Below the pieces are notes generated by a model that was given only the letters and a program-made list of their open reading frames with translations, ran no database searches and was not told the origin of the DNA. Positions 1,135 to 63,444 of a stretch of DNA of 64,000 nucleotides are shown one piece after another; within the stretch, counting starts at the first letter, position 1; each line of letters begins with the position of its first letter. Position numbers and translations under genes: made by a program. This stretch comes from Candidatus Poribacteria bacterium (GTDB taxonomy: Bacteria; Poribacteria; WGA-4E; PCPOR2b): positions 1,888,001-1,952,000 of the forward strand of contig OZ242351.1 of NCBI GenBank assembly GCA_965208675.1. The letters are read 5' to 3'.

Positions 1135-1152
1135 CGGGTTCCTCCTCTGAGA

Positions 1153-3934: not shown

Positions 3935-3943
3935 GGAAGACGT

Positions 3944-4487: not shown

Positions 4488-4832
4488 ATGGCAAGTTTAT
4501 CAAATGAAAAATGTGTCGCCTGCCGCCGTGACGCACCGCTAGTCACGGAAGCGGAGATCGCCAAACTTAAACCGCAAATTCCCCAATGGCACCTAATCGA
4601 ACGAGCGGGCATCAATCGGTTGGAACACACATTTCAATTCTCGAATTTCGCCCAAGCGTTGACATTTACAGGCAGGGTCGGTGAGTTAGCGGAGACAGAA
4701 GGTCATCACCCGGCAATCCTGACGGAGTGGGGCAGCGTCACAGTGACGTGGTGGACACACAAGATTAGAGGGCTGCATCGCAACGATTTCATCATGGCCG
4801 CAAAGACCGATCAGATTTATTCATCGTTATAA
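4488..4832 (+). CDS. phhB: Pterin-4-alpha-carbinolamine dehydratase
   Basis: CVAC N-terminus, [26 protein letters not shown]; AGGAGG RBS before ATG 4488. Confidence 0.93.
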
Positions 4833-4849
4833 TATTAAGGCTGCTAATC

Positions 4850-5398: not shown

Positions 5399-5431
5399 GC
5401 GCAATGGCGTAGACGAAAAATCCCGCCATTT

Positions 5432-5830: not shown

Positions 5831-5888
5831 CTTTAGGTTCCTTATTCATTTAGTTCTCGGTATGACTGCCACCATCTATCATTTGATA

Positions 5889-8800: not shown

Positions 8801-10052
8801 AACAGGAAATTCCGTTGCGCACCGTCGGGTCGCTCGCGGCGGGGTTGGAAACGATGTTTATCGGGGCTTCATTCAACCGTTCTCCGGACTCATCGACAAT
8901 TAAGTATCCTTGCAAGCCGTTTGGCAGATTGAAGATAATCTCCCCGCCATCTTGCGTAAAATCCAGCGGGTGTGTAAAGATGTTTTGCGTTCCGATATTT
9001 CCGGCAAAGTCATAGCTTTTCCAATACGCCCCATATCGAGAGGCATGGCGTTCTACCACTCGGTTGTTATTAGAGACGCCTGAATTGTTGAACCCCGCCC
9101 GCCAAACGTGAACCCCCGGTGCATTGTTAAGGTTTCGTTCGACATTGACCTCCAATCGGCTTTCCAACTCACTGTCCGTAAACGGCAGAGAAAGCAGGTC
9201 GTGGTAGAGCGGAGGGCTAGACGCGGTTGCAAGAAACCAGTCAATATGAACCGACGGTATGACGCAGTTCATCTCCGTCTGTAACCTTGCCAGTTGTTCC
9301 TGCAGCGCGGTCTGTGCCGGTGCGTCAAACGAAATATGGTAGGGATACACATCTTCTATTTTCGTCCAGCCATCATCGACATCCCACTCGTAGTGCCGAA
9401 GATCGATGTAAAATATCGTCTGTTGCGGGTCAATGGGTTGTGGGTTGGTGACTTCACTCCCCCATGAGAGGCTATTGATTAGTTTGGAGAGTGCATTGCG
9501 GTACTCACGAAGTATCTCCACGCGCTCGTCTATGTTATAGAGATGAGTAAGTGTCAAGTAGCGGGCGAAGGATCGGTCAAACGGTGCGAGCGACATGAGG
9601 TGGGATTCAATGGTAACGAGTATTTCACCGGGGGAGATGAACTGCCTATCGGTTATTGGTGCCGCCGCCCAATCGCGCGCGCCGGTTAATATCCAGCGTC
9701 GAATGATGTCAATGGACTGGGCGGGCAAGGGCTCCGCTGCAAGTGGCATTTGTAACCCGCCGTCCTCAGTGGGACCTAGCAGGCGTTTGTACAAATCGGA
9801 GCCATCGGGGTTGCCTGGAATAACCGTACTCCCTTCTATGAGCAAGTCGTATTCCATAAGGAGTACGTCTCGGTAGGCGCCATCGGGACCGTGGCAGTTA
9901 AGACAGTTTTGCTCAAAGATGGCATAAGCATCTTGGGCTAGATGCGATTGGGCGAATATGTGTTGAGAACCTGCGATAATGAGAATTAGAGCGAAAAATG
10001 CGATGCGATACTGAGCCCCAATCGGAGTTGATGAAAAATTCAATTTGAACAT
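5889..10052 (-). pseudogene. Secreted cytochrome c/LRR/cohesin/dockerin/FlgD-CTD protein interrupted by one in-frame TAG (6585-6587)
   Basis: ORFs 6585-10052 and 5889-6581 are in the same frame: ...GAT TAG GAA TTG CAG AAC. Domains: signal peptide, CLNCH and CFGCH, about 12 internalin-type LRRs, cohesin-like GWQFDIAFDP, dockerin GDVNGDGDIDIFDL, NYPNPFNPETWIPYQL tail. Confidence 0.82.
7440..8300 (-). repeat. 66-bp (22-aa) leucine-rich repeat array
   Basis: LxxLxLxxNxISDLSPL period; a 34-nt block recurs almost identically at 7504, 7570 and 7702. Boundaries approximate. Confidence 0.9.
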
Positions 10053-10369
10053 ATTGTCCTCATTTTCACAAATTTAATTCAGAGGCGAGAAAAACAAGTC
10101 TATTTCAGAATTCTCTCATTCCGTTCCCCACTATTCATTACAAAAATAATAACTGAACCGCTATATCCTGTCAATATGAAATATTCTATTTGTTTTTTAT
10201 AATGCCAACTGTCACTTGCATAGGGACGCCGATTCTCGGGATAATTTTTCTCTATACGCTTCGCAATTATGCTACAATGTGATTTGTTGTGGGAGTGCGA
10301 GTCCATTCGGCAATGGATTAAATTGTTCATCGGACAAAATTACGTTCAATAAAGGGATTACTACATTAT

Positions 10370-48824: not shown

Positions 48825-51800
48825 ATGACTGGACTGAATACGTTAATGGCCATCAGTCTTCTCGGCGGCATTGCCTTCGCACAGACGCCGCAGCCTATTG
48901 ACCCGATGGAAGAGGATGTCACTCAAGGTGCGTTGCGCGTCAATACCGACGAGGGAATCGTTGAATGCCCGCTGAAACACACGGATGTCAGTGCGAGCAT
49001 CTCCGGCTTCATTGCCCGCGTGACAGTGACCCAAACGTTCGACAACCCGTTCGACGAAAATATTGAGGCAGCTTATGTGTTCCCGCTGCCGCATACCGCC
49101 GCCGTGGATGATATGACAATGGTCATCGGCGAGCGGCGGATAGTGGGAATAATCAAGCGTCGGGATGAAGCGCGCGCTATGTATGACCAGGCAGTCAAAC
49201 GGGGATCGACAGCAAGCCTGCTAGAACAGGAACGCCCTAATATCTTTACCCAGTCGGTCGGCAACATTAAGCCCGGCAAAGAAATCCACATCGAAATTTC
49301 TTATGTTGATGTGCTCAACTACGACATGGGAACTTACGAATTTCATTTCCCGATGGTGGTCGGTCCCCGTTTTATACCGGGTGCACCGATTTCCAAGAAA
49401 CCGGAGCTGCCGAGCGAACTGAAGGGCAAGGTTGGCGAAATAGAAGAATCGGAAACGCTTACAGAAGAGGGACACCCGTCCGGCACAGGTTGGTCGCCGG
49501 ACACGACGCGGGTGACAGACGCCTCGCGAATTACTCCGCCGACGCTCAAGCCGGGCTACCGCACCGGACATGATATTAGTCTTTCAGTGACACTCGAAGC
49601 GGGTGTGCCGATTGGGGACATAAAGATTGTCAATCATGAAGCGACGCTTAAGCGCATGGGAGCATCAAGCGCCACGGCGGAAATTTCGCCTTCGGATTCA
49701 ATTCCAAATAAAGATTTTGTGATGAAATACACTGTCGCCGGTGAAAAGTCGGAGATGGCTGTTTTGGCGCACTCGAAAGGCACTGACCAAGGCTATTTCA
49801 TGCTCATGATCCAGCCAAAACTCCACGCCGAACTCGCCCAAGCACCCCCGCGCGACCTGGTTTTTCTCGTTGATGCCTCAGGTTCGATGAGCGGCGAACC
49901 TTTGGATAAAGTGAAAGAAGCGATGCGCCACTTTTTCCGCCTGAGTAAGCCGAACGACACTGTGCAGGTCATCACCTTTGCCAACCGCGCTGAGAATTTG
50001 TTTGAAAAACCGGTACCGGCGACTCAAGACAACGTCAAACGCGCCTTGAAGTTCACACAGCAGATTCAAGCTAGTGGCGGAACGGAGATGCTCACGGGTA
50101 TACAAAAAGTGCTCAACGAACCGGCGGACTCAGAACGGGTGCGTATCGTCGTGATGCTCACGGATGGCCAAATCGGCAATGAGGCGGAGATAATTGAAGA
50201 GGTTGGAAAGCACGCCGGAGACCAGATTCGGTTTTGGACAATCGGCATCGGCTCGTCCCCCAACCGGTTCTTAATTGATGGCGTGGCGAAACAGGGCGGC
50301 GGAATGTCAGGCGTACTTGAACTCAACACCGATCCAAAGGAACTGGTTTCACGGATTGTTCACCGAATCCATCGTGCACAACTCGCGAACATTCGGATCG
50401 ATTGGAACGATCTGTCCGTCTACGAAGTCTTTCCACGCCGCATCCCTGAATTGTGGACAGGAAGCCCGGTCATTTTATTTGGACGTTATGCGAATGGCGG
50501 AAAGACACAACTTGAGTTATCAGGCGCCGCGGAGGGAAAACCGCTCTCTTATTCGCTCGACGTAACGCTTCCGAATGTGAATCCCGAGCACGGCGTTCTC
50601 TCCACTGTGTGGGCGCGGAAGAAGATTGAGGACATCTCAGCGCAGATGTACTATGCCGACACCCCCGAAGTCAGAGAAGAAATTAAGCAGGTAGCGATTA
50701 CTTATCGGCTGATGAGCCAATACACGAGTTTCGTCGCAGTTGATGAAAGCGAAGTGCAGCTCGCGAGTGCGCAGGCGAAACCGCCCCGGCAGGTGGCTGT
50801 TCCTGTGCCAATACCAGCAGGAGTTGATTTTGAAGGCGTCTTTGGTAACAGACACAGTGTACGAATCGAAGTTGATGATGATTTTGACTTGGTAAATCGC
50901 AAAGTTCTTCGTAAACCTAAACCGTCCGCTCCAATGAGGGTATCTTCATCCGACACTACAATGGTTTCAAATCAAGCACACCGGATGAATTATTCCGCAC
51001 AACCAAACCGTCGGTCAGTAGTGAGGAGGAAAATTTTACGACAGGTAAAGCCTACTTTACCTACAAGTGCACTTAAAAGCGAGGAGCCACGGGGACTTGC
51101 TATGATGAAATCCACGATTGGCGAAACAAGCAAATTTCAGCAAGAAGCTCAAATCCCTACGCTGCGGTCAAGTGACACCTTGTATGAACGACCTCGCCTC
51201 CGTAGCGACGGTATTCAAGGCATTGCACGTGCCCTTTTCGCTCAGTGGGCGATGCAAAGGCACGAAGGGGTACAAGAGGCATTTGCGGAGGCAGAAGAAC
51301 TCCGTAAACGCGGCAAACTTGAAGCGGCACGACTCCGTTACCAGCACGTGTTGGGGTTGCTAGCAGGCATTGAGGATGAGGATGAAATATACCCCGCCGC
51401 TACCAAAGCCATTTTTTCAATAACGGAAGAGATTGGCCGGAATCGTGCCGGAACCCATTCGCGATTGAACCGAAAACTCGACCTCGTTATTCGACATCAG
51501 CCGCTCGGCAATGCAATCTGCACGGTTGCCAAAGCGAGTGGATTCGAACTTGACCTCATTGTCGGCAGCCTCGAAGATGTCGGAGAGTTGCTGAATTCGA
51601 CGGAACTTCGAGTGACGTATCTGGACTTACGCAATGCCACAGTGATTCAAGCGCTTGATTGGCTGCTCGCACCGTACCATCTAACATGGCAAATGAAAGG
51701 CGCGGACACCATTACAGTCGGCACATCGCGGCGTTTACAGACGCCCTCAGCATGGGGATACGAAGTTGCAGATCTCGCAATACCTTCGGAAAAAGAATTT

Positions 51801-52802
51801 AAGAAATTCAAGTCCGAGGAGGACGTTGAGAACGCGCTAAGCGTTTTCCTTCAAGGAGTCAGAATTGCCATCGACCAGAAGGACGATTCGGGACTCAAGC
51901 CGGGGTCCGCGGTGTTGATTGACTCTTCGCGATTACTCGTCTACGGCGAGCCGCACATTCACGCGAAAGTAAAGATGTTGCTCAAAGCGTTGCGCGACAA
52001 TCAACTTGACATCATGGGGACGGCTGCGCGAAACCTCTCAAACAAGGAGCGCGCATCACTGAAAGCCCTGCAGCAACTAACGGCGAAACGTTGGGAAATG
52101 GGGGCTAAGGATCGAGAAGAAGCGGCAGTAAAAGGTGCGCGTGAGCACGTTGAAAACTGCATGGACGACACGCCTTGGCAGTTGCTTGCTGAAGCGGTTC
52201 GGAGTAGTGTTGACCTTGAAGCACTCACCATACTCCAATCTGCATGGGACAATCCGCGCATCGGAGAGATAGATTCGGAGCTTTTGGCTCGAGCTGCTTG
52301 GTGTATCGGCATGGCAGCGAGAGCAATTCCCGAGGATGCCGAACTCACAACTCTTGCTGAAAATTCCGTCTCCACGGTTAAGGCTATGAAATTGTGGAAG
52401 CCAAAGGATGATGTGGACTACGATGATCTCACGCCTTTATACGCGGCGTTGCTGCTTCGAGACGGAGGCGCACGAAACAGCCAAGTTGATGACGCGGTAA
52501 AGTCGCTAGTGAAGTCAGACGATAGTTCTTGGGATGGGACGACGCGCCTCATCGCCCAAGGTTGGCTTTCCGCTTCGCCGGAAGTAGATCGCATGTTATC
52601 GAATGCAATCGCGGCACATAAAATTAACGGCGACAATAACGTTCTTTTGACTAGCCTGCTTGCAAAACGCCGCGGCGGGCAGTTGTGGCAGACCTTCCGC
52701 GAGGAGATGCCAAACATCGTTGGAAAACAGCGGTTGAACGGTCATTTAGTGGTTCTCGTCAATCGGCTAGAGGCAGGGCCGTTGGCATTTATGTCGAAAT
52801 GA
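48825..52802 (+). CDS. Secreted VIT + VWA domain protein with long C-terminal extension
   Basis: PLKHTDV..EAAYVFPLP..LLEQERPNIF (VIT), DASGS MIDAS, GGTEM, LTDG, MSQYTSFVAVD. Confidence 0.9.
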   Translation: MTGLNTLMAISLLGGIAFAQTPQPIDPMEEDVTQGALRVNTDEGIVECPLKHTDVSASISGFIARVTVTQTFDNPFDENIEAAYVFPLPHTAAVDDMTMVIGERRIVGIIKRRDEARAMYDQAVKRGSTASLLEQERPNIFTQSVGNIKPGKEIHIEISYVDVLNYDMGTYEFHFPMVVGPRFIPGAPISKKPELPSELKGKVGEIEESETLTEEGHPSGTGWSPDTTRVTDASRITPPTLKPGYRTGHDISLSVTLEAGVPIGDIKIVNHEATLKRMGASSATAEISPSDSIPNKDFVMKYTVAGEKSEMAVLAHSKGTDQGYFMLMIQPKLHAELAQAPPRDLVFLVDASGSMSGEPLDKVKEAMRHFFRLSKPNDTVQVITFANRAENLFEKPVPATQDNVKRALKFTQQIQASGGTEMLTGIQKVLNEPADSERVRIVVMLTDGQIGNEAEIIEEVGKHAGDQIRFWTIGIGSSPNRFLIDGVAKQGGGMSGVLELNTDPKELVSRIVHRIHRAQLANIRIDWNDLSVYEVFPRRIPELWTGSPVILFGRYANGGKTQLELSGAAEGKPLSYSLDVTLPNVNPEHGVLSTVWARKKIEDISAQMYYADTPEVREEIKQVAITYRLMSQYTSFVAVDESEVQLASAQAKPPRQVAVPVPIPAGVDFEGVFGNRHSVRIEVDDDFDLVNRKVLRKPKPSAPMRVSSSDTTMVSNQAHRMNYSAQPNRRSVVRRKILRQVKPTLPTSALKSEEPRGLAMMKSTIGETSKFQQEAQIPTLRSSDTLYERPRLRSDGIQGIARALFAQWAMQRHEGVQEAFAEAEELRKRGKLEAARLRYQHVLGLLAGIEDEDEIYPAATKAIFSITEEIGRNRAGTHSRLNRKLDLVIRHQPLGNAICTVAKASGFELDLIVGSLEDVGELLNSTELRVTYLDLRNATVIQALDWLLAPYHLTWQMKGADTITVGTSRRLQTPSAWGYEVADLAIPSEKEFKKFKSEEDVENALSVFLQGVRIAIDQKDDSGLKPGSAVLIDSSRLLVYGEPHIHAKVKMLLKALRDNQLDIMGTAARNLSNKERASLKALQQLTAKRWEMGAKDREEAAVKGAREHVENCMDDTPWQLLAEAVRSSVDLEALTILQSAWDNPRIGEIDSELLARAAWCIGMAARAIPEDAELTTLAENSVSTVKAMKLWKPKDDVDYDDLTPLYAALLLRDGGARNSQVDDAVKSLVKSDDSSWDGTTRLIAQGWLSASPEVDRMLSNAIAAHKINGDNNVLLTSLLAKRRGGQLWQTFREEMPNIVGKQRLNGHLVVLVNRLEAGPLAFMSK

Positions 52803-52985: not shown

Positions 52986-53408
52986 GTGAAAAGAACCCGC
53001 TCCCAAATGCCGCAACAGATCTTGCCGTTAGTCGTCTTACTCAGCCTATCGCACTGCATCGGTTGCATGAACGTCATTGACAAAATCCTTGACGGCGGAG
53101 ATGAGGGATGGACTATTGTCGATATGCCTGTCAGAGATGTTTCGGTGCGTGTCGCTGAGAGTCAACCCGTCCAAGTCACCGTTGAGGTTATCGGGTACCT
53201 GCCGGACGGTTGTACAACGCGTCATGAGACGCATCACTCAAGGGAAGGGAACACTGTTACCATTCGGATGACAATGAAACGCAGTGAGGATAAGATATGC
53301 ACGAAGGTCGTGACAGATATTCGAGAGCAAATTTATATCGGGACGTTTGCGCCCGGCAATTACCACCTCATCGTTAACGGCGTGAAAAAGAAATTCCGCA
53401 TTGACTAA
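52986..53408 (+). CDS. Hypothetical lipoprotein, beta-sandwich with a Cys pair
   Basis: Signal ending CIGC; GYLPDGC...ICT...PGNYHLIVNG. Confidence 0.7.
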   Translation: MKRTRSQMPQQILPLVVLLSLSHCIGCMNVIDKILDGGDEGWTIVDMPVRDVSVRVAESQPVQVTVEVIGYLPDGCTTRHETHHSREGNTVTIRMTMKRSEDKICTKVVTDIREQIYIGTFAPGNYHLIVNGVKKKFRID

Positions 53409-53445: not shown

Positions 53446-56040
53446 CTAAAACAACGTCCGATATAGAACCTTGATGTTACGCCCCGGCTCCGGCATCACC
53501 GATTTAATTCTCGATAGGTGTTGACGGTATTCAGTATTGAATATATTCTCGACAGTGGTTACCAACTGATGTTGAAGATGCCACATTGAGAACACTACCT
53601 GCAAACCGGCGTCGTACACGAGGTACCCATCTGTCTTTTCTTCAAATTCGCCGAGCCGCTGCTGGTCATCCGAAAACCGCGCTGTCAAATGCAAATTTAA
53701 CGGTAGGGTAACGTATCGCAATGCCACTCGTCCGTTGAGCGGCGGGATGCGTTCGAGCGGCAACCCGCTTGCCGCCAATGACCCTTTGACGTAACTCAAG
53801 TGCGACTCTACATGAATTCGCGGGAAAATTGCGCCGCCAATACCGATCTCGGCGCCGTCGAGGATAGCGTCTTGCCCCTGGTATTGATATATCCACAGCC
53901 ATCCCGCTGCGCCGCTACCCCATTCCTTTTCCCCGGTTTGGGTCGGACTCAGATAGCCGTAAATCTGGTTGCGAAAAACGGCGAGATTGAGCTTCATTCG
54001 GTTGCCTGAATAACGCAGAAATGCCTCCGTACCGAAGCCATCCTCCGAACCGAGTTCAGCGTTGCCGATTTCATATGAAAATACTGCGAGATGCGGACCG
54101 TCTGAAAAGAGCTCTTCGATTCCCGGCGTGCGGAATGTCCTCATGAAGGTGGCGCCCAACCCCAAGTTTTCGTTCCATTGATAGATGCTTGAGACAGCGC
54201 CAGACACGCCTCCGAAGTCACGCCGCTCGACCTTTCCTGCACGTATTTCAACACCGTCGACAAACGGCTCAACCCTTTTGGTGTCGTAACGAAGCGCTGC
54301 CTGTAGCGTGAAGTCGTTGTATCGTTTCTGTTTGAAAAAGAACCCCGCCAAAGATATCTCCCGCGTGTGGGGTGTCCAGTAAAACCCACCCGTCGCATGG
54401 TCGCGATACTCGGTCCAGATCCCTGCAACTGCATCGCCGCGCAAGTGCAGCAGTGCGGTTGTGTTGTACGTCAACAAACCGAACTCCACGCCGAGCGTAT
54501 TGTTGGACTCATACTCTTGATGTTGATAGCGCGCATAGGTCGAATACAGCTTAACTTTTTCGAGAAACGATTCCTCAAACGCGTATTCCAGATTGCCCTC
54601 ATACCGTTGGCGATCGAGGTCAATCGTAACGCCATTGATGTGGCCTTCGGGCGAGCCGGGGATTCCATAGTCTGAACGGTAGCGACCGCCTGAAAGCCCA
54701 ATGTGCCCCCAATCTTTTACCACTGAAGCACCCGTTGAAAAATTGGTGTTTGATAATGAGGTGTTTTCTAGTATACCGACCGGTGTGTGAATATCGCCGG
54801 CGCGGCGGCGGTTCAGCTCTAACCGCCACGCGAGGTTGCCGACCGGAATCGTCACTCCTGTTGTCCCGGTCAGCCCTGAGTTGACCGATTCACTCTGAAA
54901 CGTGAAGTTCATCGTCGGCTGGTTGGGGAGAGTTTGCGGGATGGTCTCGCGTTTGACATTGACGACGCCTCCGAGTGTGCTTGAACCGTAAAGCAGCGAC
55001 GCCGGACCGCGCGTGATTTCAATCCTTGCCGCCGTAGTTGGGTCAATCGCAACCGCATGGTCAGCAGACGATGCCGATTTATCGCCTGAACGTCCGCCGT
55101 CTTCTAGGATAAGCAGACGGCCGCCTCCCATGCCTCGAACGACCGGACGTGCTGCCGATCGCCCCATCGTCCGCTGGGCGATACCCAACTCTCCACTAAG
55201 GGTCTCGGCAATCGTTGCGCCCATTTGTTGATTTAGTTTCTTATCGGAGAGTTTGAGGTCGGTTGTTTTCTCAAACTTAGCGAGTTCGTCATCGTCAGGT
55301 GTGACAATGATTTCACCGAGTTGGACTGTGCTGGGCTTTAATTTTACGTCCAGCATTATCGGATCCGCATTGACAGCAATTTTCTGATTTAATACTTCAT
55401 AGCCAACGCACATGAATTGCAGCGCATGTGTTCCCAACACAATTTGACCAAACTGAAACCGCCCAGTTTCATCAGTTCGAGACTGAATAGTCCTCCCCGC
55501 AGCAACAAGCGTAACCTCGACTTCAGCGATTGGATTCTCTGTCTCCGCATCAATCACTTCTCCTGAAACGGAAACGGTGCGGGACAGCGAAACTGCGTCT
55601 GCGCCATGCGTAAAAAGTATGGCAAGCAGGGAAAATATGACGAGTTTAGATTGAGTGAATTCTTCAACAATTCGATGGCAGAGGCGGTGATTGATTAGGT
55701 GAACAACGGCGAGCAGAAGTCCGCCCAAAGCCATAAAAATGACCTCGGTTCCCTCTGAAGCGTAAAATCGTGCGATAAAGATTAGAAATAATGCACTACC
55801 GAGCATTAGAAACACTCGCCATTTTCGGTGGTTTCTATAGCCCCATGTGAAACTGCCCACAGCAACTCCCACTGCGCCGAATACCAACGCCAACTCCGCT
55901 GACTCGCTGACAATAAACCCAAGCCCAATCAGCGGCAATACGGTCATCAAGAGCTGGGCTGCCATACAGTGGACGGCACAAGCAAACGATAAGCATGCGC
56001 CTACATTGTCCACGACTGCGTGATTCAGATATCTATTCAA
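53446..56040 (-). CDS. MerC-domain / TonB-dependent receptor fusion (ZnuD-like receptor)
   Basis: aa 1-123 D..G..LS..CAVHC...GYRNH...HLIN (MerC-like); carboxypeptidase-regulatory-like domain; RPVVRGMGG, DHAV and RGPASLLYGS plug; MPEPGRN and terminal Phe. TTG start with AGGAG RBS. Confidence 0.9.
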   Translation of the reverse strand: MNRYLNHAVVDNVGACLSFACAVHCMAAQLLMTVLPLIGLGFIVSESAELALVFGAVGVAVGSFTWGYRNHRKWRVFLMLGSALFLIFIARFYASEGTEVIFMALGGLLLAVVHLINHRLCHRIVEEFTQSKLVIFSLLAILFTHGADAVSLSRTVSVSGEVIDAETENPIAEVEVTLVAAGRTIQSRTDETGRFQFGQIVLGTHALQFMCVGYEVLNQKIAVNADPIMLDVKLKPSTVQLGEIIVTPDDDELAKFEKTTDLKLSDKKLNQQMGATIAETLSGELGIAQRTMGRSAARPVVRGMGGGRLLILEDGGRSGDKSASSADHAVAIDPTTAARIEITRGPASLLYGSSTLGGVVNVKRETIPQTLPNQPTMNFTFQSESVNSGLTGTTGVTIPVGNLAWRLELNRRRAGDIHTPVGILENTSLSNTNFSTGASVVKDWGHIGLSGGRYRSDYGIPGSPEGHINGVTIDLDRQRYEGNLEYAFEESFLEKVKLYSTYARYQHQEYESNNTLGVEFGLLTYNTTALLHLRGDAVAGIWTEYRDHATGGFYWTPHTREISLAGFFFKQKRYNDFTLQAALRYDTKRVEPFVDGVEIRAGKVERRDFGGVSGAVSSIYQWNENLGLGATFMRTFRTPGIEELFSDGPHLAVFSYEIGNAELGSEDGFGTEAFLRYSGNRMKLNLAVFRNQIYGYLSPTQTGEKEWGSGAAGWLWIYQYQGQDAILDGAEIGIGGAIFPRIHVESHLSYVKGSLAASGLPLERIPPLNGRVALRYVTLPLNLHLTARFSDDQQRLGEFEEKTDGYLVYDAGLQVVFSMWHLQHQLVTTVENIFNTEYRQHLSRIKSVMPEPGRNIKVLYRTLF

Positions 56041-56095
56041 TTATTGGCTCCTAACGTCATTCGTTACTGTTACCGGTATCGGCTTTGCCGGTCCG

Positions 56096-56157: not shown

Positions 56158-56817
56158 TTACGGCGTAACCGTCACGGGAATCAAGAGCGCCGCCGTGAAA
56201 TCGGGGTGGTCGCCGTGCATGAGTTGGAGCTTGATTTCCGTTTGACCGGCTTTAAGCCCCGCCACCTCAAAGGTGAATTGCTCGGCAAGCTCATCGCCGT
56301 GATCATCATGATCATCGTCCTCATCGTGATCGTCATGTTCGTCGTGTTCATCGTCCTCATCGTGATCGTCCTCATCGTGATCATCGTGATCATCATGATC
56401 GTCGTGATCGTCGTGATCGTCGTGGTAAAGGTGTACCTCAATGATAGATGAATCATATCCGCTGAGCGCTAAAGCAAACACCTCTTCCTCGCCATGTTCA
56501 TGGTCGTGGTCGTGGTCGTCTTCCTCTTCCTCTTCCGGATTCTCAGGAAAAAATTCATGGCTGTCGTGGTCAAGGAACGCCGTCAGTACGTCGAGTTCCT
56601 CTCCGACTTTGAGCGTGATACCTCCCGTGTGCGCCCCTTCAAATTGACGGTATATCTCGTTCCCGTCAACCTTGAGCACAAAACCGTCCGCATCGGCATG
56701 AAAGGGTTCATCGTCATGGCCATCTTCGACAATAGGATTGTCGTCTTCGCCGCAAGCAGCGAAAAGTGCAACAGATACGAGTAACAAAAACGTAAAACGT
56801 AAAACAGGTGTAAACAT
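56158..56817 (-). CDS. His/Asp-rich lipoprotein, putative metal scavenger
   Basis: GGAGG RBS before ATG 56817, lipobox FAAC, DHDHDHEH and (HDD)n tracts, LMHGDHPDF motif. Confidence 0.85.
   Translation of the reverse strand: MFTPVLRFTFLLLVSVALFAACGEDDNPIVEDGHDDEPFHADADGFVLKVDGNEIYRQFEGAHTGGITLKVGEELDVLTAFLDHDSHEFFPENPEEEEEDDHDHDHEHGEEEVFALALSGYDSSIIEVHLYHDDHDDHDDHDDHDDHDEDDHDEDDEHDEHDDHDEDDDHDDHGDELAEQFTFEVAGLKAGQTEIKLQLMHGDHPDFTAALLIPVTVTP
56295..56425. repeat. 9-bp-period low-complexity repeat encoding (HDD/HDE)n
   Basis: TCRTCRTGA units in tandem. Confidence 0.85.
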
Positions 56818-56976: not shown

Positions 56977-57285
56977 TTAAACGGGGATAGTCGGCGGGGC
57001 ACGACTCCGGACACCCTTGTCAAGAATCGTGGAAATGAAATGTAATTTGATGATGGGTCTGTGAATTGAGATGCAGGTATTAAGATTGTTGACGTCAACG
57101 GCTTTAAGCTCTATGCCGACGTGGTTGGCATTGAAGAAACAAGCGGAGCAGTGTTCTGAACAGCAATCGACGTGCTCATGGTCGTGGGTAAGTGCAACAA
57201 GGTTTACCGTTATCAGATAATAAACGATTCCAATCGCTATTACCCAAGCCACGCTGTTCGGATTTATTCTAATCTTCCGCAACAC
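56977..57285 (-). CDS. DUF2946-like leader protein with CxxC and C-terminal RAPP motif
   Basis: N-terminal hydrophobic helix, HDHEHVDCCSEHCSAC, ends GVRSRAPPTIPV; GAGG RBS. Confidence 0.82.
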   Translation of the reverse strand: MLRKIRINPNSVAWVIAIGIVYYLITVNLVALTHDHEHVDCCSEHCSACFFNANHVGIELKAVDVNNLNTCISIHRPIIKLHFISTILDKGVRSRAPPTIPV

Positions 57286-57331: not shown

Positions 57332-57361
57332 ATGCTATCACAAGCAGATTAGCATTGTCAA
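57332..57361 (-). promoter_or_regulatory. Promoter of the metal-uptake operon with overlapping dyad
   Basis: Minus strand TTGACA-N18-TAGCAT with TG extension; ATGCTA-N12-TAGCAT inverted repeat at 57332-57355. Confidence 0.55.
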
Positions 57362-57540: not shown

Positions 57541-58830
57541 TTATTGGGGGTGCCTTTCGCTCCCGATAGTGTGGACGATCAGGTTAACACCCCATTCTAA
57601 CCACTTTTCATTCTCAGAATTTTCTCCCCACTTTAATCCAATCCCAGCGGCGTCGTAGTATACAGCGGTTCGTCCATTGAGTCTAAGCGCATAAAATTCG
57701 CCGCGCTTTTTGGCGACGCGCGGCACACCCTTCTTAAATTCAAAAAAGCTGCGGCAGACCGCATCCTTTCGATTAATCGGCACGAAATGTGCTGTTTGAC
57801 CGACAATCTTCCAGACCTCGAAGCGAATGGAGTTTGCCACCGGCCCATCAATCCCCCATGCGGTGGATATGTCCGAAAAAAGGAGCGTTCCGCCGCTCTG
57901 CAGGTAGGCTCGCAGATTCGCACGCTCCGTTTCGGAGAATGTAAACGCATCTCGTGCAGCGACGTAGATCAGTGGAATTTGGAGAATATCGGGGGAAGCG
58001 AGCGGCATCGTCTCAGGCAAAAGCTGCGTCCGTACCTTCGTCCATCTATTCATCGCATACACCAAGCGGTTCAAAGCTTGGGCACGAATGGCATCTGCCG
58101 CGTCCTCGTATTGGACAACCACGATATTGTAATACCCTGTAATCTCACGTCCGGTACCGCGTACCTCCACCTGAACCGCGGTTCCCGCGTTACTTTGAAT
58201 TTTGTCAAGGATGCCGGCGGCACGGCTTGGCGCAATTACCTTTCCCTCCGAAGCCATTCGTCCAACTATCGGCAAACTGCTCACTGACAAGTTGGGTTGG
58301 GAAACCGCATCCGCACTCAGCTCAACGTTCGTTTGGAATTCGGTTTCCGCCACCGGATTCAAGCTTACCCGAGCGGGGGAGTGCACGACTGTTGCTGATT
58401 GCGTTGCCTGGGGCCCCGTGCGAAGCGGCACCGCAGCAACACGCCGGGTAATTGGGCTCTTTCGATCCATGTCAACCGCGGCAATCTGCCGGGGTGGCCG
58501 TTTTCGGCGTTTGAGCGGCGATGGGTTCGGCAACGGCACAACAGCAACTTGTATGGCAGACTCCGCAATTGGGTGCGGAGTAGGCAACATCGCCACCCAT
58601 AAAAGGATAAAGGCGTTCAGCACAAGTGATAACAGCCACGCTGTTGCGGCGATTTTCCTCCGACGGGCGACCGTAGATAAGCGAGGCGCGGCTAATACTT
58701 CCTTTTTACGTCCGGCAGTGAACTCGGGGCGTGCCGGAAGCGATTCGAAATTTCGGTGCACCTTACGGCGTCTACGCTTTGCCCGAGTGTAATTCAAGCG
58801 AGCAACTTGCCGATAACGTGAGTGATACAT
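57541..58830 (-). CDS. Membrane-anchored DUF4159-like protein
   Basis: TM helix plus Pro-rich linker; PLIYV..FTFSETERANLRAYLQSGGTLLFSD; WGVNLIV. Confidence 0.75.
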   Translation of the reverse strand: MYHSRYRQVARLNYTRAKRRRRKVHRNFESLPARPEFTAGRKKEVLAAPRLSTVARRRKIAATAWLLSLVLNAFILLWVAMLPTPHPIAESAIQVAVVPLPNPSPLKRRKRPPRQIAAVDMDRKSPITRRVAAVPLRTGPQATQSATVVHSPARVSLNPVAETEFQTNVELSADAVSQPNLSVSSLPIVGRMASEGKVIAPSRAAGILDKIQSNAGTAVQVEVRGTGREITGYYNIVVVQYEDAADAIRAQALNRLVYAMNRWTKVRTQLLPETMPLASPDILQIPLIYVAARDAFTFSETERANLRAYLQSGGTLLFSDISTAWGIDGPVANSIRFEVWKIVGQTAHFVPINRKDAVCRSFFEFKKGVPRVAKKRGEFYALRLNGRTAVYYDAAGIGLKWGENSENEKWLEWGVNLIVHTIGSERHPQ

Positions 58831-59094: not shown

Positions 59095-62000
59095 CTATCT
59101 TTCACTTGCGAACGCGCGATAATCCTCTGTACGGAAGATTGTCCACAGTTCAGTCGACAAATCATAACGACAAACACCGGCAGAAAATGTACCGACCCAA
59201 ACGTATTTGCCATCCAGGCTAATGCTGCGAATATTGTTGTCGGATAAACCGTTGTCAATGTTGAATCCATCCCACCGCTCTTCGGCGCGGTTGTATCGGC
59301 TGAGTCCTTCGCCGGCGGTTCCAACCCAGACGTATTTTTCGCCTGCGGTGATTGTACTGATGTCGTTTCCGATGAGTCCATCTAGGACTGTTAGCGTTAC
59401 CCATCGCCCTTCCGGCGCATTGTACCGGAATACGCCTTGTCTCGTGCCGACCCACATGTTTTCGGGGTCCGACGCCAGTGCGGTAATTTCGGCATTCTTC
59501 AGATATGAAGGAATTTCAAACGTATGCGCCGGCGTCAGTCGGCGAAAATTTATTTCAAAAACTTTCAATCCGATTTCCCGTCCAAGCCAGAGTTGATTGT
59601 TTAGAAAGTCCATCGCCGTGCAGCTGATTATCCCTAAATCTTCGGGGGTGGTTTCTAAGCTTTCGGTCAATCCAGCCCCGGTTTGCACGCGAGTGTGTTC
59701 AACGATTTGAGCGTTCGTTATCAAAATCCAAGAGTCCGCTTTCCGGTCATAAATTGCGATTTGGTTGTCGCTGAGCACCCAAACCTTACCGTCTCGCTGC
59801 TGAATATGGCGCACCCACGGTAGCAGCGGGTGGATTTCCCTAGCCGCATTTGCGGCTTTATCGTAGATGATGACGCCCGCTTCCGTGCCAAGCCAGAGTT
59901 GGCCGAGGACGGGGGCGATCGTACGTACGGTCGGCATCGGCGGGAATTCGACGTTCACCGTTATGAGCGGCGACGGTACAGTCGGGTCCCCTGGTTGTGG
60001 GGTTCTCCCTTCCACTATACGCTGAATGATTGAAATCGCTTCCTCGCGTGCAACTTCTGGATGGTAATCGACGTAAACCTTGCGCGTTCGGACGGGATTA
60101 TTAGCTTGTAAAGCGGATTCAACCGCCTGTGCATTTTCAGCCACACGCCGTTGTAAATTGGCTAACTCTTCATTTTCCGCGTCATCACTTGGAAAACCTA
60201 AATTCGCAATACGCCATGAGTGCGAGATTTTGTCATATTTGGCTAAACCGAGACGTGTACCCACCCACAGATAATCGCCGTCCGTCACGACGGTTTTGAT
60301 GTTGTTACTAATCAAGTCCGAGGCATTTGATTCGATGTCTTCGAGGGCTTCCGAATAAGTTGTCCAATCGCCCTGAACCCAGTGATACCGCGCTAATCCG
60401 GCATTCGTGCCGAACCAGATTTCATCGCCGTCAATCGCGACGACCTGCACGTTGTTTGAGGGGAGCCCCTGCGCCTCGGTAAAATCACTGGACAGGTCAG
60501 TAATCTGATTGTAAAGCGTTATGCCGTCGGAGGTGCCGATCCAGTGATATTTCTCCTTTGAACCGATGCTTTTGGCGTCTGTGGCGGCGAGGCCGTCCGC
60601 CTGTGAATACGGCGTCAGGGATTCGACCTCCTTGTCGTACATGGTGACGCCGCCCGGCGTGGCGAGGAAGATGTACTTCTCTTCGACATTTATTGAGGTG
60701 ACGATGTTGTTGATCAAGCCGTCGTCGGTGGTGTAGACCGCCCACTGACTCTCATCGGGTGTGTATTTCGCCGCTCCCTGATTTGTGCCGAACCAGACGT
60801 AATCCCCATCAACCGCGACCGACCAAACAACATCATCGGGAAGCCCGTCTTTTTTTGTCAGTGTTTGCCAGGTCCCCGCCTTGGTGTCGAATCGCGAGAC
60901 ACCGCTCTGTGTGGTTATCCACAAGCTGTATCCGTCTCGCGCGAGCGCGTTTACGCGATTGTCGCAAAGCCCATCGGCAGTGGTTAGGGATGTCCACCTG
61001 TCTAAGCCCCAGTTGTATCGGCTGACACCGCCGTGTGTTCCGACCCACAGTTCGTTTTCCAACAGCAACAGACTCGACACGCAATTGTGTTGAAGTCCAT
61101 CGCGTTTTGTATAGTTGAGCCAAGTATCCGCCGTTTTATCGTACCGGCTGATTCCCCGGGGCGTGCCGAAAAAAGCGTAATCATCGTTGATGACGATGGC
61201 GCGAATATCTTTGGCGACAAGTACTTCTTCATGACCGCGCTCGCGGCTTGGGGCGTATGCCCACCACGAATCGTTGGGCTTGTTGTACCGGTAGATACCG
61301 CTATCCGTCGCAACCCAGACGTATTCATGCGACGGGTGAATATCATGAATGCGTACTGTTGAAAGCCCCGGCGCATCATCGTCCGTGAACTCCCGCGTTT
61401 GCCCGGTTGCCAAGTCGTACCGTATCAGATTTCGCCAACCGCCGCCCCAAATTTCTCTGCCGTCCATGGCGACGACATCAATACTCGCTTCGCGGCCGAT
61501 TTCCAGCTTTTGCCAGTTATCACCTGATTTATCGTCGTGTAGATAAACGCCTGTTTCAGTGGCGACACAGGTGGTACCGCCGGATCGATCTAAAGCCAGA
61601 ATAGGCATGCCTTCAAAGGCATGCGTGGTGTGCCATTTCTGCGCCGATTTTTCGTACCGAGACAGCCCGCTTCCCGTGCCGACCCAGAGGTATTGCGAAC
61701 TCGCGGCGAGGTCTGTGATTTTGTCATTGGATAACCCTAACCGACTTGAGAACGCGGTCCACTCATGCGTCGAATTGTCGTATCGGTTCAAGCCGCGTGT
61801 GGTGCCGACCCAAATCGACTTACCATCAACCCGGATTTTCGTAATTTCATCGGCAACCAACCCACTTTTCGCCGCCCGAAAATAATCCCACTTTTTATTG
61901 AATTTATCGAACCGCGAAATTCCACGGTCGCTGCCTATCCATACGTAGTTGCCCACGACATCAAGACAGGAGATAGCCCCGGCGCCCAAGCCATCTTCGT

Positions 62001-63444
62001 TAGTATAGGATTTCCACCGTTCGGTTTTTGGATTAAACCGACTTATCGCTCTCTGTGTCGCCAGCCAAACGCCATCGGTGTCCTCACCAATTGCCAGCAC
62101 ATAAGCGGAGGGAAGCGTTTTCTCTTTACGGTACGTTTTCCACCGGCCAGAAACCGAGTGAAACTGCGAAAGCCCGTGTATAGTTCCAATCCAGATGGTG
62201 TTCCCTTTGACCGCGAGAGACTTAATCTCGTTTGATGCCAATCCCATATCTTGATGGAACCACTGCATGGTTCCGAGTTTTGTATCGAAATTGAGGAGTC
62301 CGTTTCCCGTCGCCATCCAGACTCGGCCCGCCGAGATTGCCAGGGCTGCAATCTGATTCGGTATCAACTCCTGAGTTTCACGATTCTGTACGGCGTTCGA
62401 TGGGACGAAGACCTCCCAGCCGAGCGTTTTCCATGTGTCGACCTCGCGTTTGTTGAAAGCACGCATGGCGCGTTCATATTCCGAATCGGCAGCCCGCGCC
62501 TGGGCCCGCGTTGGATTCCGCGAAAATTGCCGGTTTCTTGCCCGCACAGAGGCCGCGAATTGTTGCGGCTCTTTCAGTTTGCTATAGGCTTTGTCCTCGT
62601 TGGCGAGGTCTGTGGGGTTCATAAATTTCTTGTTAACGGTGCGGACAAGCCCCGAATTCGTCGCAATATATACGCTATCGCCACTCGCTTCAATGTCCGT
62701 AATCGAATCGCCCAGAATGTCCATAATCGAATTGGGCACTATCTCTGGGCCGGGGCGCGGGACCGAGCGATTGCCGCCCCGGGTGCTCACCCAAAAGGCA
62801 CTCTGATTGGTGAAATACTCCCACTCATCATACTTAACGTTATATCTCGATAGTCCGCCGGGGGTTCCAAGCCATACGTACTTTGAATCGTGATGAATCG
62901 CTGTTACGGCCGCCGTTTTAATTCCCAAAAAATCTGTGTATGAACGCCACCGATTCTTCTTCAATTGAAACGCACTCGCCCCCTTTTCGGTGCCCACCCA
63001 GATCCAGTCGCCGCGCGCCGAAATACACCGAATCTTGTTTGCAACCAGCCCGTCCTTGACAGTATAGCTTCTCCATTCGTCTCGGTTCATGTCAAAAACC
63101 GATAGCCCGGAATCTGTGCCGAACCACACGCGCCCGGATGGTTTTCGATCGAACACCCCCTGCTTCCACTCAATGCCGATGCAATTCACTTCGTTGCTGA
63201 CAAGCCCATCCTTCGTTGTGAAAAAATCCCATGTTTTCGCATCAAAATTGTACCGGCTGACGCCGGCACCGGTTGAAAGCCACAGGTAATCACCGCCTAT
63301 CTCGACCCCGCGCACATCCTCGCCAATTAACACCTCGCCCATCTCGTCTTCATCGGACTCTGTCTCCGGCACGCCGATGGTGAACAGTACGCTCAACAAA
63401 ATCAACATTGTGCATACGCATTTGACACATTTTGAAATAGTCAT
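59095..63444 (-). CDS. Large secreted multi-beta-propeller protein (two-component-regulator propeller-type repeats)
   Basis: More than 25 repeats of WVGTxxGLSRY...W..YT..DGL..N.I; signal-like N-terminus; no kinase domain. Confidence 0.88.
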   Translation of the reverse strand: MTISKCVKCVCTMLILLSVLFTIGVPETESDEDEMGEVLIGEDVRGVEIGGDYLWLSTGAGVSRYNFDAKTWDFFTTKDGLVSNEVNCIGIEWKQGVFDRKPSGRVWFGTDSGLSVFDMNRDEWRSYTVKDGLVANKIRCISARGDWIWVGTEKGASAFQLKKNRWRSYTDFLGIKTAAVTAIHHDSKYVWLGTPGGLSRYNVKYDEWEYFTNQSAFWVSTRGGNRSVPRPGPEIVPNSIMDILGDSITDIEASGDSVYIATNSGLVRTVNKKFMNPTDLANEDKAYSKLKEPQQFAASVRARNRQFSRNPTRAQARAADSEYERAMRAFNKREVDTWKTLGWEVFVPSNAVQNRETQELIPNQIAALAISAGRVWMATGNGLLNFDTKLGTMQWFHQDMGLASNEIKSLAVKGNTIWIGTIHGLSQFHSVSGRWKTYRKEKTLPSAYVLAIGEDTDGVWLATQRAISRFNPKTERWKSYTNEDGLGAGAISCLDVVGNYVWIGSDRGISRFDKFNKKWDYFRAAKSGLVADEITKIRVDGKSIWVGTTRGLNRYDNSTHEWTAFSSRLGLSNDKITDLAASSQYLWVGTGSGLSRYEKSAQKWHTTHAFEGMPILALDRSGGTTCVATETGVYLHDDKSGDNWQKLEIGREASIDVVAMDGREIWGGGWRNLIRYDLATGQTREFTDDDAPGLSTVRIHDIHPSHEYVWVATDSGIYRYNKPNDSWWAYAPSRERGHEEVLVAKDIRAIVINDDYAFFGTPRGISRYDKTADTWLNYTKRDGLQHNCVSSLLLLENELWVGTHGGVSRYNWGLDRWTSLTTADGLCDNRVNALARDGYSLWITTQSGVSRFDTKAGTWQTLTKKDGLPDDVVWSVAVDGDYVWFGTNQGAAKYTPDESQWAVYTTDDGLINNIVTSINVEEKYIFLATPGGVTMYDKEVESLTPYSQADGLAATDAKSIGSKEKYHWIGTSDGITLYNQITDLSSDFTEAQGLPSNNVQVVAIDGDEIWFGTNAGLARYHWVQGDWTTYSEALEDIESNASDLISNNIKTVVTDGDYLWVGTRLGLAKYDKISHSWRIANLGFPSDDAENEELANLQRRVAENAQAVESALQANNPVRTRKVYVDYHPEVAREEAISIIQRIVEGRTPQPGDPTVPSPLITVNVEFPPMPTVRTIAPVLGQLWLGTEAGVIIYDKAANAAREIHPLLPWVRHIQQRDGKVWVLSDNQIAIYDRKADSWILITNAQIVEHTRVQTGAGLTESLETTPEDLGIISCTAMDFLNNQLWLGREIGLKVFEINFRRLTPAHTFEIPSYLKNAEITALASDPENMWVGTRQGVFRYNAPEGRWVTLTVLDGLIGNDISTITAGEKYVWVGTAGEGLSRYNRAEERWDGFNIDNGLSDNNIRSISLDGKYVWVGTFSAGVCRYDLSTELWTIFRTEDYRAFASER

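What the first reader, a model, noticed from the sequence alone, without database searches (positions are those of the whole stretch)
55560..56040. Inner-membrane MerC domain fused to an outer-membrane receptor through an internal signal peptide: possible polyprotein
Seen: one uninterrupted frame carries a 4-TM MerC-like domain (CAVHC, aa 1-123), then KLVIFSLLAILFTHG-ADA|V (aa 132-150), then a complete TonB-dependent receptor. There is no ATG between the MerC end and the hydrophobic segment. Established: MerC proteins are inner-membrane metal permeases and TonB receptors must reach the outer membrane. Inference: signal peptidase I cleaves after ADA and gives two proteins in two membranes at 1:1 stoichiometry from one gene.
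Basis: partly seen in the sequence, partly recalled or inferred. Interest (0 to 1): 0.8.

Follow-up and report, generated by a model that had tools for sequence, protein, structure and literature searches.

The report
MerC fused to a TonB receptor
One gene of a sponge-associated bacterium joins an inner-membrane metal permease to an outer-membrane metal receptor through the receptor's own export signal, so the cell probably has to cut one protein into two that end up in different membranes.

Summary
Window 53446-56040 (-) is one 864-aa frame: MerC (aa 11-119), a signal-peptide-like segment (K132-A149, A-D-A before V150), then a complete ZnuD-like TonB-dependent receptor. There is no ATG, GTG or TTG between aa 106 and 150.

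It is not an assembly error. A contig of another study bridges the junction without indels. The same architecture occurs in 3 of 176 genomes of the phylum and in 5 protein clusters.

The fusion arose by in-frame deletion inside a duplicated metal-uptake cluster (small protein, His-rich lipoprotein, MerC, ABC ATPase). The window and a congener have different deletion end points, and a third junction exists in another genus. Both halves show purifying selection, dN/dS 0.11-0.23.

MerC's C-terminus is cytoplasmic by the positive-inside rule and by natural MerC::ABC-ATPase fusions, so the signal segment would place its cleavage site in the periplasm.

Cleavage by signal peptidase I is the best reading (about 0.55). 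It is inferred, not shown: I had no RNA, proteome or SignalP-type evidence. The gene context points to zinc uptake, not mercury resistance.

The parts
53446..56040 (-). Whole fused ORF, 864 aa, TTG start
   Evidence: An identical protein is on record once (P0002).
56048..56052 (-). Shine-Dalgarno AGGAG, 7 nt before the TTG start
   Evidence: The same motif lies before the G002 orthologue.
55678..56040 (-). MerC domain, aa 1-121, four hydrophobic helices, C21xxxC25
   Evidence: Pfam PF03203; hydropathy. It keeps all 40 columns invariant among 14 MerC sequences. Homology to the paralogue ends at 55677 (loose ends).
55648..55677 (-). Linker aa 122-131 (HRIVEEFTQS). RIV is a remnant of the ABC ATPase gene; the rest is the n-region of the receptor's signal peptide.
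   Evidence: DNA junction alignment; comparison with G003 and G001.
55594..55647 (-). Internal signal-peptide-like segment aa 132-149 (K, h-region LVIFSLLAILFT, c-region HGADA). Predicted signal peptidase I site between A149 and V150 (55594|55593).
   Evidence: Homologous to the N-terminal signal peptides of unfused orthologues. Cleavage is inferred.
53446..55593 (-). Mature TonB-dependent receptor, aa 150-864: CarbopepD_reg 55303-55572, Plug 54964-55251, barrel 53599-54720, C-terminal Phe
   Evidence: Pfam. NCBIfam best match is ZnuD, 184.8 bits, below the cut-off of 950.
56158..56817 (-). Upstream His/Asp-rich putative lipoprotein. The likely start is the ATG at 56817 (signal ending LFAAC); the mechanical ORF runs to 56910.
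   Evidence: no Pfam. It is syntenic in relatives. Indels in multiples of 3 occur in the repeat in other samples.
56977..57285 (-). First gene of the cluster: small membrane protein (102 aa) with HDHEH and CSAC motifs
   Evidence: no Pfam. It is syntenic in relatives.
57332..57361 (-). Promoter-like site (TTGACA, 18 nt, TG-TAGCAT; 10 of 12) upstream of the small gene
   Evidence: The same region is conserved upstream of the small gene in relatives. It is a consensus match only.

Best explanation
A genuine in-frame gene fusion in a Poribacteria-type sponge symbiont. A deletion inside a duplicated metal-uptake cluster removed the end of merC, the remnant of an ABC ATPase gene and the receptor's own start codon. 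As a result the ZnuD-like TonB-dependent receptor can only be translated from the merC start.

Inferred mechanism: the four MerC helices insert into the inner membrane with the C-terminus in the cytoplasm. The retained signal peptide then acts as a fifth, in-to-out segment and starts Sec translocation of the 715-residue receptor part. Signal peptidase I cuts after A-D-A149. MerC, now carrying the signal peptide as an extra C-terminal helix, stays in the inner membrane. The receptor is released to the periplasm and is assembled into the outer membrane.

The cluster most likely serves zinc (or related divalent metal) acquisition, not mercury resistance.

Shown: the fusion, its recurrence, its selection pattern and the sequence features. 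Inferred: translocation, cleavage, activity of each half and the substrate.
For: (1) The fusion is real.
- A contig of run X1, probably the source sample, is identical over 55000-55827.
- A contig of X8, from another study, covers 55004-55747 with 27 substitutions and 0 gaps.
- No indel is listed inside the ORF. The 15 listed substitutions that I checked give no stop; 86 further differences were not shown.

(2) The fusion recurs.
- In the phylum scan, 105 of 176 genomes have MerC. It lies in a long open frame in 3 of them: G000 (864 aa), G002 (872 aa) and G005 (876 aa).
- Five protein clusters carry the fusion: P0002, P0003, P0004, P0008 and P0005, the last N-truncated.

(3) The junctions are independent.
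- The window keeps CGA-ATT-GTT of the ATPase remnant and lacks the MerC tail.
- G002 keeps the MerC tail and lacks CGN-ATT, so neither derives from the other by simple deletion.
- G003 shows the intermediate state: MerC, then an ATPase fragment fused to the receptor.
- G005, in another genus, has a third junction and a different neighbourhood.

(4) Both halves show purifying selection.
- Receptor dN/dS is 0.11-0.19, and 0.114 between the two fused orthologues.
- For the fused MerC it is 0.14-0.23, against 0.14-0.25 for the standalone copies among themselves.
- dN to the outgroup G018 is 0.231 for the fused copy and 0.221 for the standalone copy of the same genome.

(5) No other start is evident.
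- No canonical start codon lies between aa 106 and 150.
- I saw no GGAG/GAGG/AGGA-type Shine-Dalgarno motif in the junction DNA printed.
- No promoter-like site is listed on the minus strand at the junction.

(6) The segment keeps the features of a cleavable signal peptide.
- K132; an h-region of 11-12 residues; Gly at -4; Ala at -3 and -1; an acidic mature N-terminus.
- It aligns with the N-terminal signal peptides of unfused orthologues.
- A review (PMC9360617, passages) states that uncleaved signals have longer hydrophobic stretches, and that positive charges before the stretch put its C-terminus in the periplasm.

(7) The topology fits.
- The 67-75 loop has 4 K/R and the 117-132 loop has 3 K/R, while the 92-100 loop is acidic.
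- Natural MerC::ABC_tran fusions (P0142, P0162) require a cytoplasmic MerC C-terminus.

(8) The machinery is present: two Peptidase_S26 genes and two TonB_C genes.

(9) The receptor is the only close orthologue in this genome. The next G000 receptor match listed is 26% identical. A close orthologue (best E of 1e-260 or lower) is present in 48 of 61 genomes searched.

(10) MerC and the receptor are linked across the order (coordinates).
- In 14 genomes of genus g5, MerC lies 5-8 kb upstream of the receptor on the same strand.
- In 7 genomes of family f2, MerC lies directly downstream of the receptor.
Against: - No call shows cleavage, export or expression, and no RNA run was listed.
- I could not run SignalP or DeepTMHMM. 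The topology rests on hydropathy and a low-confidence fold (mean pLDDT 53.3).
- Cleavage of an internal signal peptide after a four-helix domain has few bacterial precedents. The one I know (FbcH) is recalled, and my searches did not retrieve it.
- An in-frame ATG (M103, inside helix 4) has a GAGG 8 nt upstream (sequence), and ATT124 is a near-cognate start. G002 and G005 have an in-frame TTG, and P0003 an ATG, just before the signal segment.
- The region is in flux. MerC and the ABC genes are truncated in the congeners G001 and G003, so the fusion could be a tolerated step in decay.
- The window's MerC has Gln at a position that is Pro in the 13 other aligned MerC sequences and in the contigs of X5, X6 and X8.
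- The window's MerC has also lost the cysteine-rich C-terminal tail.
- In G002 the fused MerC is 97% identical to its paralogue (dS 0.096). Gene conversion could therefore mimic constraint there.
Confidence: 0.55

Rival explanations
1. The receptor is made separately by internal translation initiation, at M103/L105 inside helix 4 or at the near-cognate ATT124. The full-length fusion would then be a minor or irrelevant product.
For: An in-frame ATG at aa 103 is preceded by GAGG at 8 nt, and ATT lies at aa 124. Other fused genes have an in-frame TTG (G002, G005) or ATG (P0003) shortly before the signal segment.
Against: The GAGG/ATG pair lies in a conserved MerC coding stretch and is equally present in standalone MerC genes. 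A start at M103 would still need the same internal signal and cleavage. I saw no Shine-Dalgarno motif before ATT124. If internal starts sufficed, out-of-frame junctions would be tolerated, yet all three junction types are in frame.
Confidence: 0.15
2. The fusion is cleaved and gives a working receptor, but the MerC half is a functionless leader that only supplies the start codon and membrane targeting. The standalone paralogue 24 kb away does the MerC job.
For: A standalone MerC, about 87-89% identical to the fused one, sits in the paralogous cluster. The window's fused MerC has lost its Cys-rich tail and carries P29Q. MerC is dispensable in many relatives: 71 of 176 genomes lack it.
Against: The fused MerC has dN/dS of 0.19-0.20 against its paralogue and its orthologue. 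It shows no rate acceleration relative to the standalone copy. It keeps all 40 invariant columns. In G005 the fused copy is the only MerC match.
Confidence: 0.13
3. The fusion is a non-functional by-product of decay of a duplicated cluster. The protein is not exported correctly and the receptor is lost in these lineages.
For: The congeners G001 and G003 carry truncated MerC and ABC genes. Restriction-modification genes lie beside the cluster in G000 and G005.
Against: An 864-codon frame stays intact in three species-level genomes. Receptor dN/dS is 0.114 over dS 0.27 between the two fused orthologues. The junction stays in frame across strain variants in other samples.
Confidence: 0.12
4. Sequencing or assembly artefact: a missed stop or frameshift hides two genes.
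For: None found.
Against: The genome is one 4.89-Mb contig. Contigs of two studies cross the junction without indels. Independent genomes and metagenome proteins share the architecture.
Confidence: 0.01

Closest known systems
FbcH cytochrome b/c1 precursor of Bradyrhizobium japonicum (recalled from memory; not retrieved)
   Same: One gene, with a polytopic inner-membrane part followed by an internal signal peptide whose cleavage gives two proteins.
   Different: Both FbcH products stay in the same inner-membrane complex. Here the second product would have to cross the periplasm and fold into the outer membrane, and the two halves are not known to form a complex.
ZnuD, the zinc-piracy TonB-dependent receptor of Neisseria (NF038289; PMC4557270 and PMC2895646 seen as search listing and abstract only)
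   Same: It is the best NCBIfam match of the receptor part (E 3.1e-54). The gene context is zinc-type: ZnuA and COG0523 sit beside the orthologue in G050.
   Different: The score of 184.8 is far below the cut-off of 950, so this is not an equivalog. The receptor carries an extra N-terminal CarboxypepD_reg-like domain and is fused to MerC.
MerC of mer operons (PF03203). PMC3466566, passages: an inner-membrane Hg(II) transporter with four predicted membrane-spanning domains.
   Same: Pfam match above the cut-off, four hydrophobic helices and a Cys pair in helix 1.
   Different: None of the seven neighbouring ORFs scanned matches a mer family. The conserved partners are a ZnuD-like receptor, His-rich lipoproteins, a MacB-type ABC system, DUF3299, ZnuA and COG0523.
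PA4063-PA4066 Zur-regulated cluster of Pseudomonas aeruginosa (PMC11481552 and PMC8561739, passages)
   Same: The paralogous locus B has a separate ABC ATPase, a permease with FtsX and MacB_PCD domains, a His-rich protein, and a DUF3299 protein that matches PDB 4hsp. That entry is PA4066 according to PMC8561739.
   Different: The Pseudomonas cluster has no MerC, no small HDHEH protein and no receptor. Its function is disputed (import or export), so the zinc link is by association.
Streptomyces Rieske protein with an internal Tat signal (PMC13186574 and PMC9360617, passages)
   Same: A polytopic protein in which an internal signal peptide directs export of the C-terminal domain.
   Different: It uses the Tat pathway, the signal is not cleaved and there is a single product.

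Membership tests
MerC (Pfam PF03203) | Profile match above the gathering score | tested here: met
   75.1 bits against a cut-off of 27.6, aa 11-119, profile positions 1-108 of 108.
MerC (Pfam PF03203) | Four transmembrane helices with cytoplasmic termini | tested here: inconclusive
   Four hydrophobic segments and a positive-inside pattern. Helices 3-39, 46-70, 74-92 and 96-121 appear in a low-confidence model, pLDDT 53. MerC::ABC_tran fusions imply a cytoplasmic C-terminus. No dedicated topology predictor was available.
MerC (Pfam PF03203) | Cysteine pair in helix 1. Its role as the metal site is recalled from Tn21 MerC, not tested here. | tested here: met
   C21 and C25, together with C16 and H24, are invariant in 14 of 14 aligned sequences.
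Mercury-resistance MerC (functional sense) | Location in a mer operon with merR, merA or merP | tested here: not met
   I scanned seven neighbouring ORFs. Four have Pfam matches: Metallophos, MR_MLE, VIT/VWA and DUF4159. Three have none: the His-rich lipoprotein, the 140-aa ORF at 52986-53408 and the small protein. None matches a mer family. The conserved partners are zinc-type.
TonB-dependent receptor | Plug domain plus 22-strand barrel domain | tested here: met
   PF07715 at 59.2 bits and PF00593 at 100.5 bits.
TonB-dependent receptor | TonB box before the plug, and a TonB system in the genome | tested here: inconclusive
   There are two TonB_C matches in the genome. GEIIVTP (about aa 241-247) resembles a TonB box by my recollection of the consensus. 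No tool scored it.
TonB-dependent receptor | C-terminal aromatic residue of the barrel (recalled feature) | tested here: met
   The protein ends in ...LYRTLF.
ZnuD equivalog (NF038289) | Score above the curated cut-off | tested here: not met
   184.8 bits against a cut-off of 950.
Sec-type cleavable signal peptide (signal peptidase I substrate) | Positive n-region, h-region of about 7-15 residues, small residues at -3 and -1 | tested here: met
   K132; LVIFSLLAILFT (12 residues); G at -4, A at -3, A at -1; V at +1. It is homologous to the N-terminal signal peptides of orthologues.
Sec-type cleavable signal peptide (signal peptidase I substrate) | Located at the N-terminus of the precursor | tested here: not met
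   It begins at residue 132, after four helices, with no canonical start codon in between.
Polyprotein resolved at an internal signal peptide (FbcH-like) | Cleavage into two stable products | not testable with these tools
   This needs expression, fractionation and N-terminal sequencing. No RNA or protein data were available.

The most novel reading that the evidence does not exclude
Bacteria can make an inner-membrane permease and an outer-membrane beta-barrel receptor from one translation product. Signal peptidase I resolves a polytopic::OMP fusion at a retained internal signal peptide. This state arose at least three times by in-frame deletion in sponge-associated Poribacteria and is kept by selection. 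In addition, this branch of the MerC family would be the inner-membrane leg of a zinc-uptake route (ZnuD-like receptor, His-rich lipoproteins, MacB-type ABC system) rather than a mercury transporter.
Probability: 0.4. Interest if true: 0.75.

Novelty: new variant of a known kind. Interest (0 to 1): 0.55.

Why it matters
If the protein is cleaved as inferred, it is a natural case in which an outer-membrane barrel protein starts life as the C-terminal part of a polytopic inner-membrane protein. It would show that co-translational membrane targeting, SecA-driven translocation, signal peptidase I and the barrel-assembly machinery can work in series on one chain. It would also give a ready construct for studying internal signal-peptide cleavage.

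The comparative data also tie a branch of the MerC family to zinc-type acquisition clusters in three ways:
- conserved synteny with a ZnuD-like receptor;
- neighbouring ZnuA, COG0523 and a PA4064-66-like ABC system;
- natural fusions of MerC to an ABC ATPase and to a cation-efflux domain.

My searches for MerC together with Zur and TonB-dependent (2 papers listed; I did not open them) and with COG0523 (0 papers) brought up no paper that I could tie to this link. In many genomes, annotation of such genes as 'mercury resistance' is probably misleading.

The scope is modest. The fusion occurs in 3 of 176 species-level genomes of one uncultured phylum.

Tried and rejected
- Assembly artefact: rejected.
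- Expression: the look-up of sequencing runs listed no RNA holder, so nothing can be said.
- Contig X6 reaches only 27 nt past the 55677 breakpoint, so I do not count it as bridging. X5's contigs stop at 55638 and at 55677.
- ESM Atlas, residues 1-260: all hits scored 0.86-0.87 and were CarboxypepD_reg fragments. Uninformative.
- AlphaFold2 of aa 1-170 with 14 sequences: mean pLDDT 53.3. I used it only for helix positions and ran no fold search.
- PDB sequence searches with the His-rich lipoprotein paralogue and the 173-aa His-rich protein: nothing below E 0.1.
- Representative-library search with aa 1-150: 1781 hits, and the best 150 are 83-394 aa, none of receptor size. Clustering at 50% identity can hide fused forms behind unfused representatives, so this is weak evidence on distribution outside the phylum.
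- Zur-box-like palindrome upstream of the small gene: I found only a conserved -35/-10 promoter and no convincing shared palindrome.
- I first thought G050 had a 1023-aa MerC fusion (open-frame figure). The ORF listing shows a normal 132-aa MerC.
- I dropped the argument that G005 must rely on its fused MerC. Its ABC permease is displaced by restriction-modification genes, so a need for MerC there is unclear.
None returned a paper on a MerC-receptor fusion or the FbcH precedent. Supplements were not consulted.
Full report
**Observation.** The window has one open frame at 53446..56040 on the minus strand: 864 aa with a TTG start. An AGGAG lies 7 nt upstream of the start.
- Pfam places MerC at aa 11-119 (75.1 bits, cut-off 27.6), CarbopepD_reg_2 at 158-246, Plug at 264-359 and the TonB barrel at 441-814.
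- The best NCBIfam model for the receptor part is ZnuD, at 184.8 bits, far below its cut-off of 950.
- Between the fourth MerC helix and the receptor lies NHRLCHRIVEEFTQSK-LVIFSLLAILFT-HGADA|VS.
- Read codon by codon, there is no ATG, GTG or TTG in frame from aa 106 to aa 150. Only ATT (124) and ATA (135) are near-cognate.

**Is it real?** Yes.
- The genome is a single 4.89-Mb contig, 96.4% complete.
- A contig of run X1, probably the source sample, is identical over 55000-55827.
- A contig of X8, a sponge metagenome from another study, covers 55004-55747 with 27 substitutions and no gap.
- No indel is listed inside the ORF.
- The 15 listed substitutions that I translated give no stop. A further 86 differences were not shown.
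- Loose ends at 55677 in X1 and X5 read as the tail of the paralogous standalone MerC. This marks exactly where homology to MerC stops.

**Distribution.** A word-based protein search found the MerC Pfam domain together with the receptor domains in P0002 (self), P0003, P0004 and P0008. P0005 begins inside MerC but shows the same junction type as the window.
- A search for long proteins containing this MerC found only these five.
- In a scan of 176 genomes of the phylum, 105 have MerC. It lies in a long open frame only in G000 (864 aa), G002 (872 aa) and G005 (876 aa).
- One source names a relative as Candidatus Poribacteria. The runs that hold the sequence are mostly sponge metagenomes.

**Origin.** tblastn with the genome's own proteins against 20 stretches gives these cluster orders:
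- Genus g5 (G007, G018): small protein, His-rich lipoprotein, MerC, ABC ATPase, MacB-like permease, His-rich protein, DUF3299 protein, then the receptor, all on one strand.
- Family f2 (G050, G058, G041, G038): small, lipoprotein, receptor, MerC.
- G006 and G019: small, lipoprotein, receptor.

The own genome holds two copies of the first part. Locus B, 24 kb away, runs small, lipoprotein, MerC (132 aa), ATPase, permease, and so on. The window's locus runs small, lipoprotein, MerC::receptor.

The congener G003 shows an intermediate state: a damaged MerC, then a fragment of the ATPase gene fused in frame to the receptor's signal peptide.

The DNA alignment of the junctions shows two things:
- The window retains CGA-ATT-GTT of the ATPase remnant (G003 has CGC-ATT-GTT) but lacks the MerC tail.
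- G002 retains the whole MerC tail but lacks those six bases.

So the two fusions have different deletion end points, and neither can derive from the other by a simple deletion. G005, in another genus, has a third junction (…CKTSKWLWCFLF…) and a different neighbourhood. Its MerC part is closest to the standalone MerC of g5 (87% and 83%). I therefore read the data as three in-frame fusion events.

**Selection** (all).
- Receptor dN/dS is 0.11-0.19 in all pairs, and 0.114 between the two fused orthologues (dS 0.27).
- The fused MerC has dN/dS of 0.19-0.20 against its paralogue and its orthologue. Standalone copies give 0.14-0.25 among themselves.
- dN to the outgroup G018 is 0.231 for the fused copy and 0.221 for the standalone copy.
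- The fused MerC keeps all 40 columns that are invariant in 14 sequences, including C16, C21, H24 and C25.

Caveats:
- The window has Gln29 where all 13 other sequences have Pro. Contigs of X5, X6 and X8 also have Pro there.
- The window has lost the Cys-rich tail.
- In G002 the two MerC copies are 97% identical, so gene conversion may contribute to the apparent constraint.

**Topology and the signal segment.** Hydropathy gives four segments, roughly 14-40, 47-66, 75-93 and 99-117.
- The 67-75 loop has 4 K/R, the 92-100 loop is acidic, and the 117-132 loop has 3 K/R. Both termini of MerC therefore face the cytoplasm.
- Independent support comes from the representative library, which holds natural MerC::ABC_tran fusions (P0142, P0162) and a MerC::Cation_efflux fusion (P0218). 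An ABC ATPase domain must be cytoplasmic.
- The next hydrophobic stretch has only 11-12 residues, followed by Gly at -4, Ala at -3 and Ala at -1, and then an acidic mature N-terminus.
- It is homologous to the ordinary N-terminal signal peptides of unfused orthologues, for example …LLTHNVDG|VS in G001 and G006.
- A review states that uncleaved signal anchors have longer hydrophobic stretches. It also states that positive charges before the stretch put its C-terminus in the periplasm, and that signal peptidase I releases exported proteins from the membrane (PMC9360617, passages).
- The genome has two Peptidase_S26 genes and two TonB_C genes.
- The AlphaFold2 model of aa 1-170 is of low confidence (pLDDT 53.3) and only agrees on five helices.

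**Mechanism.**
- Shown: the receptor has no start codon of its own, it is the only close orthologue in the genome, and it is under purifying selection.
- Inferred: it is translated from the merC start. The internal signal starts translocation, signal peptidase I cuts after A149, MerC plus the signal helix stays in the inner membrane, and the receptor goes on to the outer membrane.
- I put this at about 0.55.
- The rivals are internal initiation (M103 with a GAGG 8 nt upstream, or ATT124), a functionless MerC leader, decay, and artefact.

**What the cluster does.** None of the seven neighbouring ORFs scanned matches a mer family. The conserved partners are zinc-type:
- The receptor's best model is ZnuD.
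- In G050 the receptor and MerC are followed by ZnuA (PF01297, 262 bits) and a COG0523-type CobW protein.
- Locus B has a split MacB-type ABC system (FtsX plus MacB_PCD) and a DUF3299 protein that matches PDB 4hsp.
- PMC8561739 identifies 4hsp as PA4066 of the Zur-regulated PA4063-66 operon. PMC11481552 describes PA4064/65 as a split MacB-type transporter (passages).
- The function of that Pseudomonas system is itself disputed, so zinc is an inference from association.

**Novelty.** My searches returned no paper on a MerC-receptor fusion. The nearest precedent I know, the FbcH cytochrome b/c1 precursor, is recalled only (searches did not retrieve it). I rate the finding a new variant of a known kind: a gene fusion resolved at an internal signal peptide, here spanning two membranes. 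Interest is moderate to high for protein-export specialists, limited by the narrow distribution and the lack of experimental evidence.

Noticed in passing
G000:C1:1963026-1969207 (locus L051, about 24 kb beyond the window's fusion gene): A paralogous cluster on the minus strand: small HDHEH protein, His-rich lipoprotein, standalone MerC (132 aa), ABC ATPase, FtsX/MacB_PCD permease, 173-aa His-rich lipoprotein and a DUF3299 protein (matches PDB 4hsp = PA4066). It is followed by a DNA methyltransferase-like gene.
   Followed up: partly
window 56158-56817 (-): A His/Asp-rich putative lipoprotein with long HDDHDD-type repeats and no Pfam family. Contigs from other samples differ by indels of 3 or 6 bases in the repeat at 56369-56519.
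   Followed up: partly
window 56977-57285 (-): A 102-aa membrane protein with HDHEH and CSACFF motifs and no Pfam match. It is the first gene of the cluster in most of the stretches compared. A conserved -35/-10 promoter lies upstream.
   Followed up: partly
P0142, P0162, P0218 (representative library): Natural fusions of MerC to an ABC ATPase domain (two proteins) and to a Cation_efflux (CDF) domain (one protein). Their organisms are unknown.
   Followed up: partly
L042 (G050:C27) 3093-10257: The receptor, MerC, ZnuA, a COG0523-type CobW GTPase, a WD40 protein and a second MerC lie in one row on one strand.
   Followed up: partly
L034 (G003) about 7790-8240: The congener has a MerC with an internal deletion of about 44 aa. 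It also has an ORF in which 50-odd residues of the ABC ATPase, including the Walker A motif, precede the receptor's signal peptide.
   Followed up: partly
P0096 (810 aa, metagenome protein): The N-terminal part of the His-rich lipoprotein is fused directly to the receptor. This is another in-frame rearrangement at the same spot.
   Followed up: no
window 55955 (codon 29 of the fusion): The window has Gln where all 13 other aligned MerC sequences, and contigs of three other runs, have Pro.
   Followed up: partly
L036 (G005) 434-3709: Restriction-modification-type genes sit where the ABC permease would be expected, downstream of the ABC ATPase.
   Followed up: no
window 48825-52802 (+), 57541-58830 (-), 59095-63444 (-): Neighbours not linked to the finding: a 1325-aa VIT/VWA protein with a weak STN match, a DUF4159 protein and a 1449-aa protein that I did not scan.
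   Followed up: no
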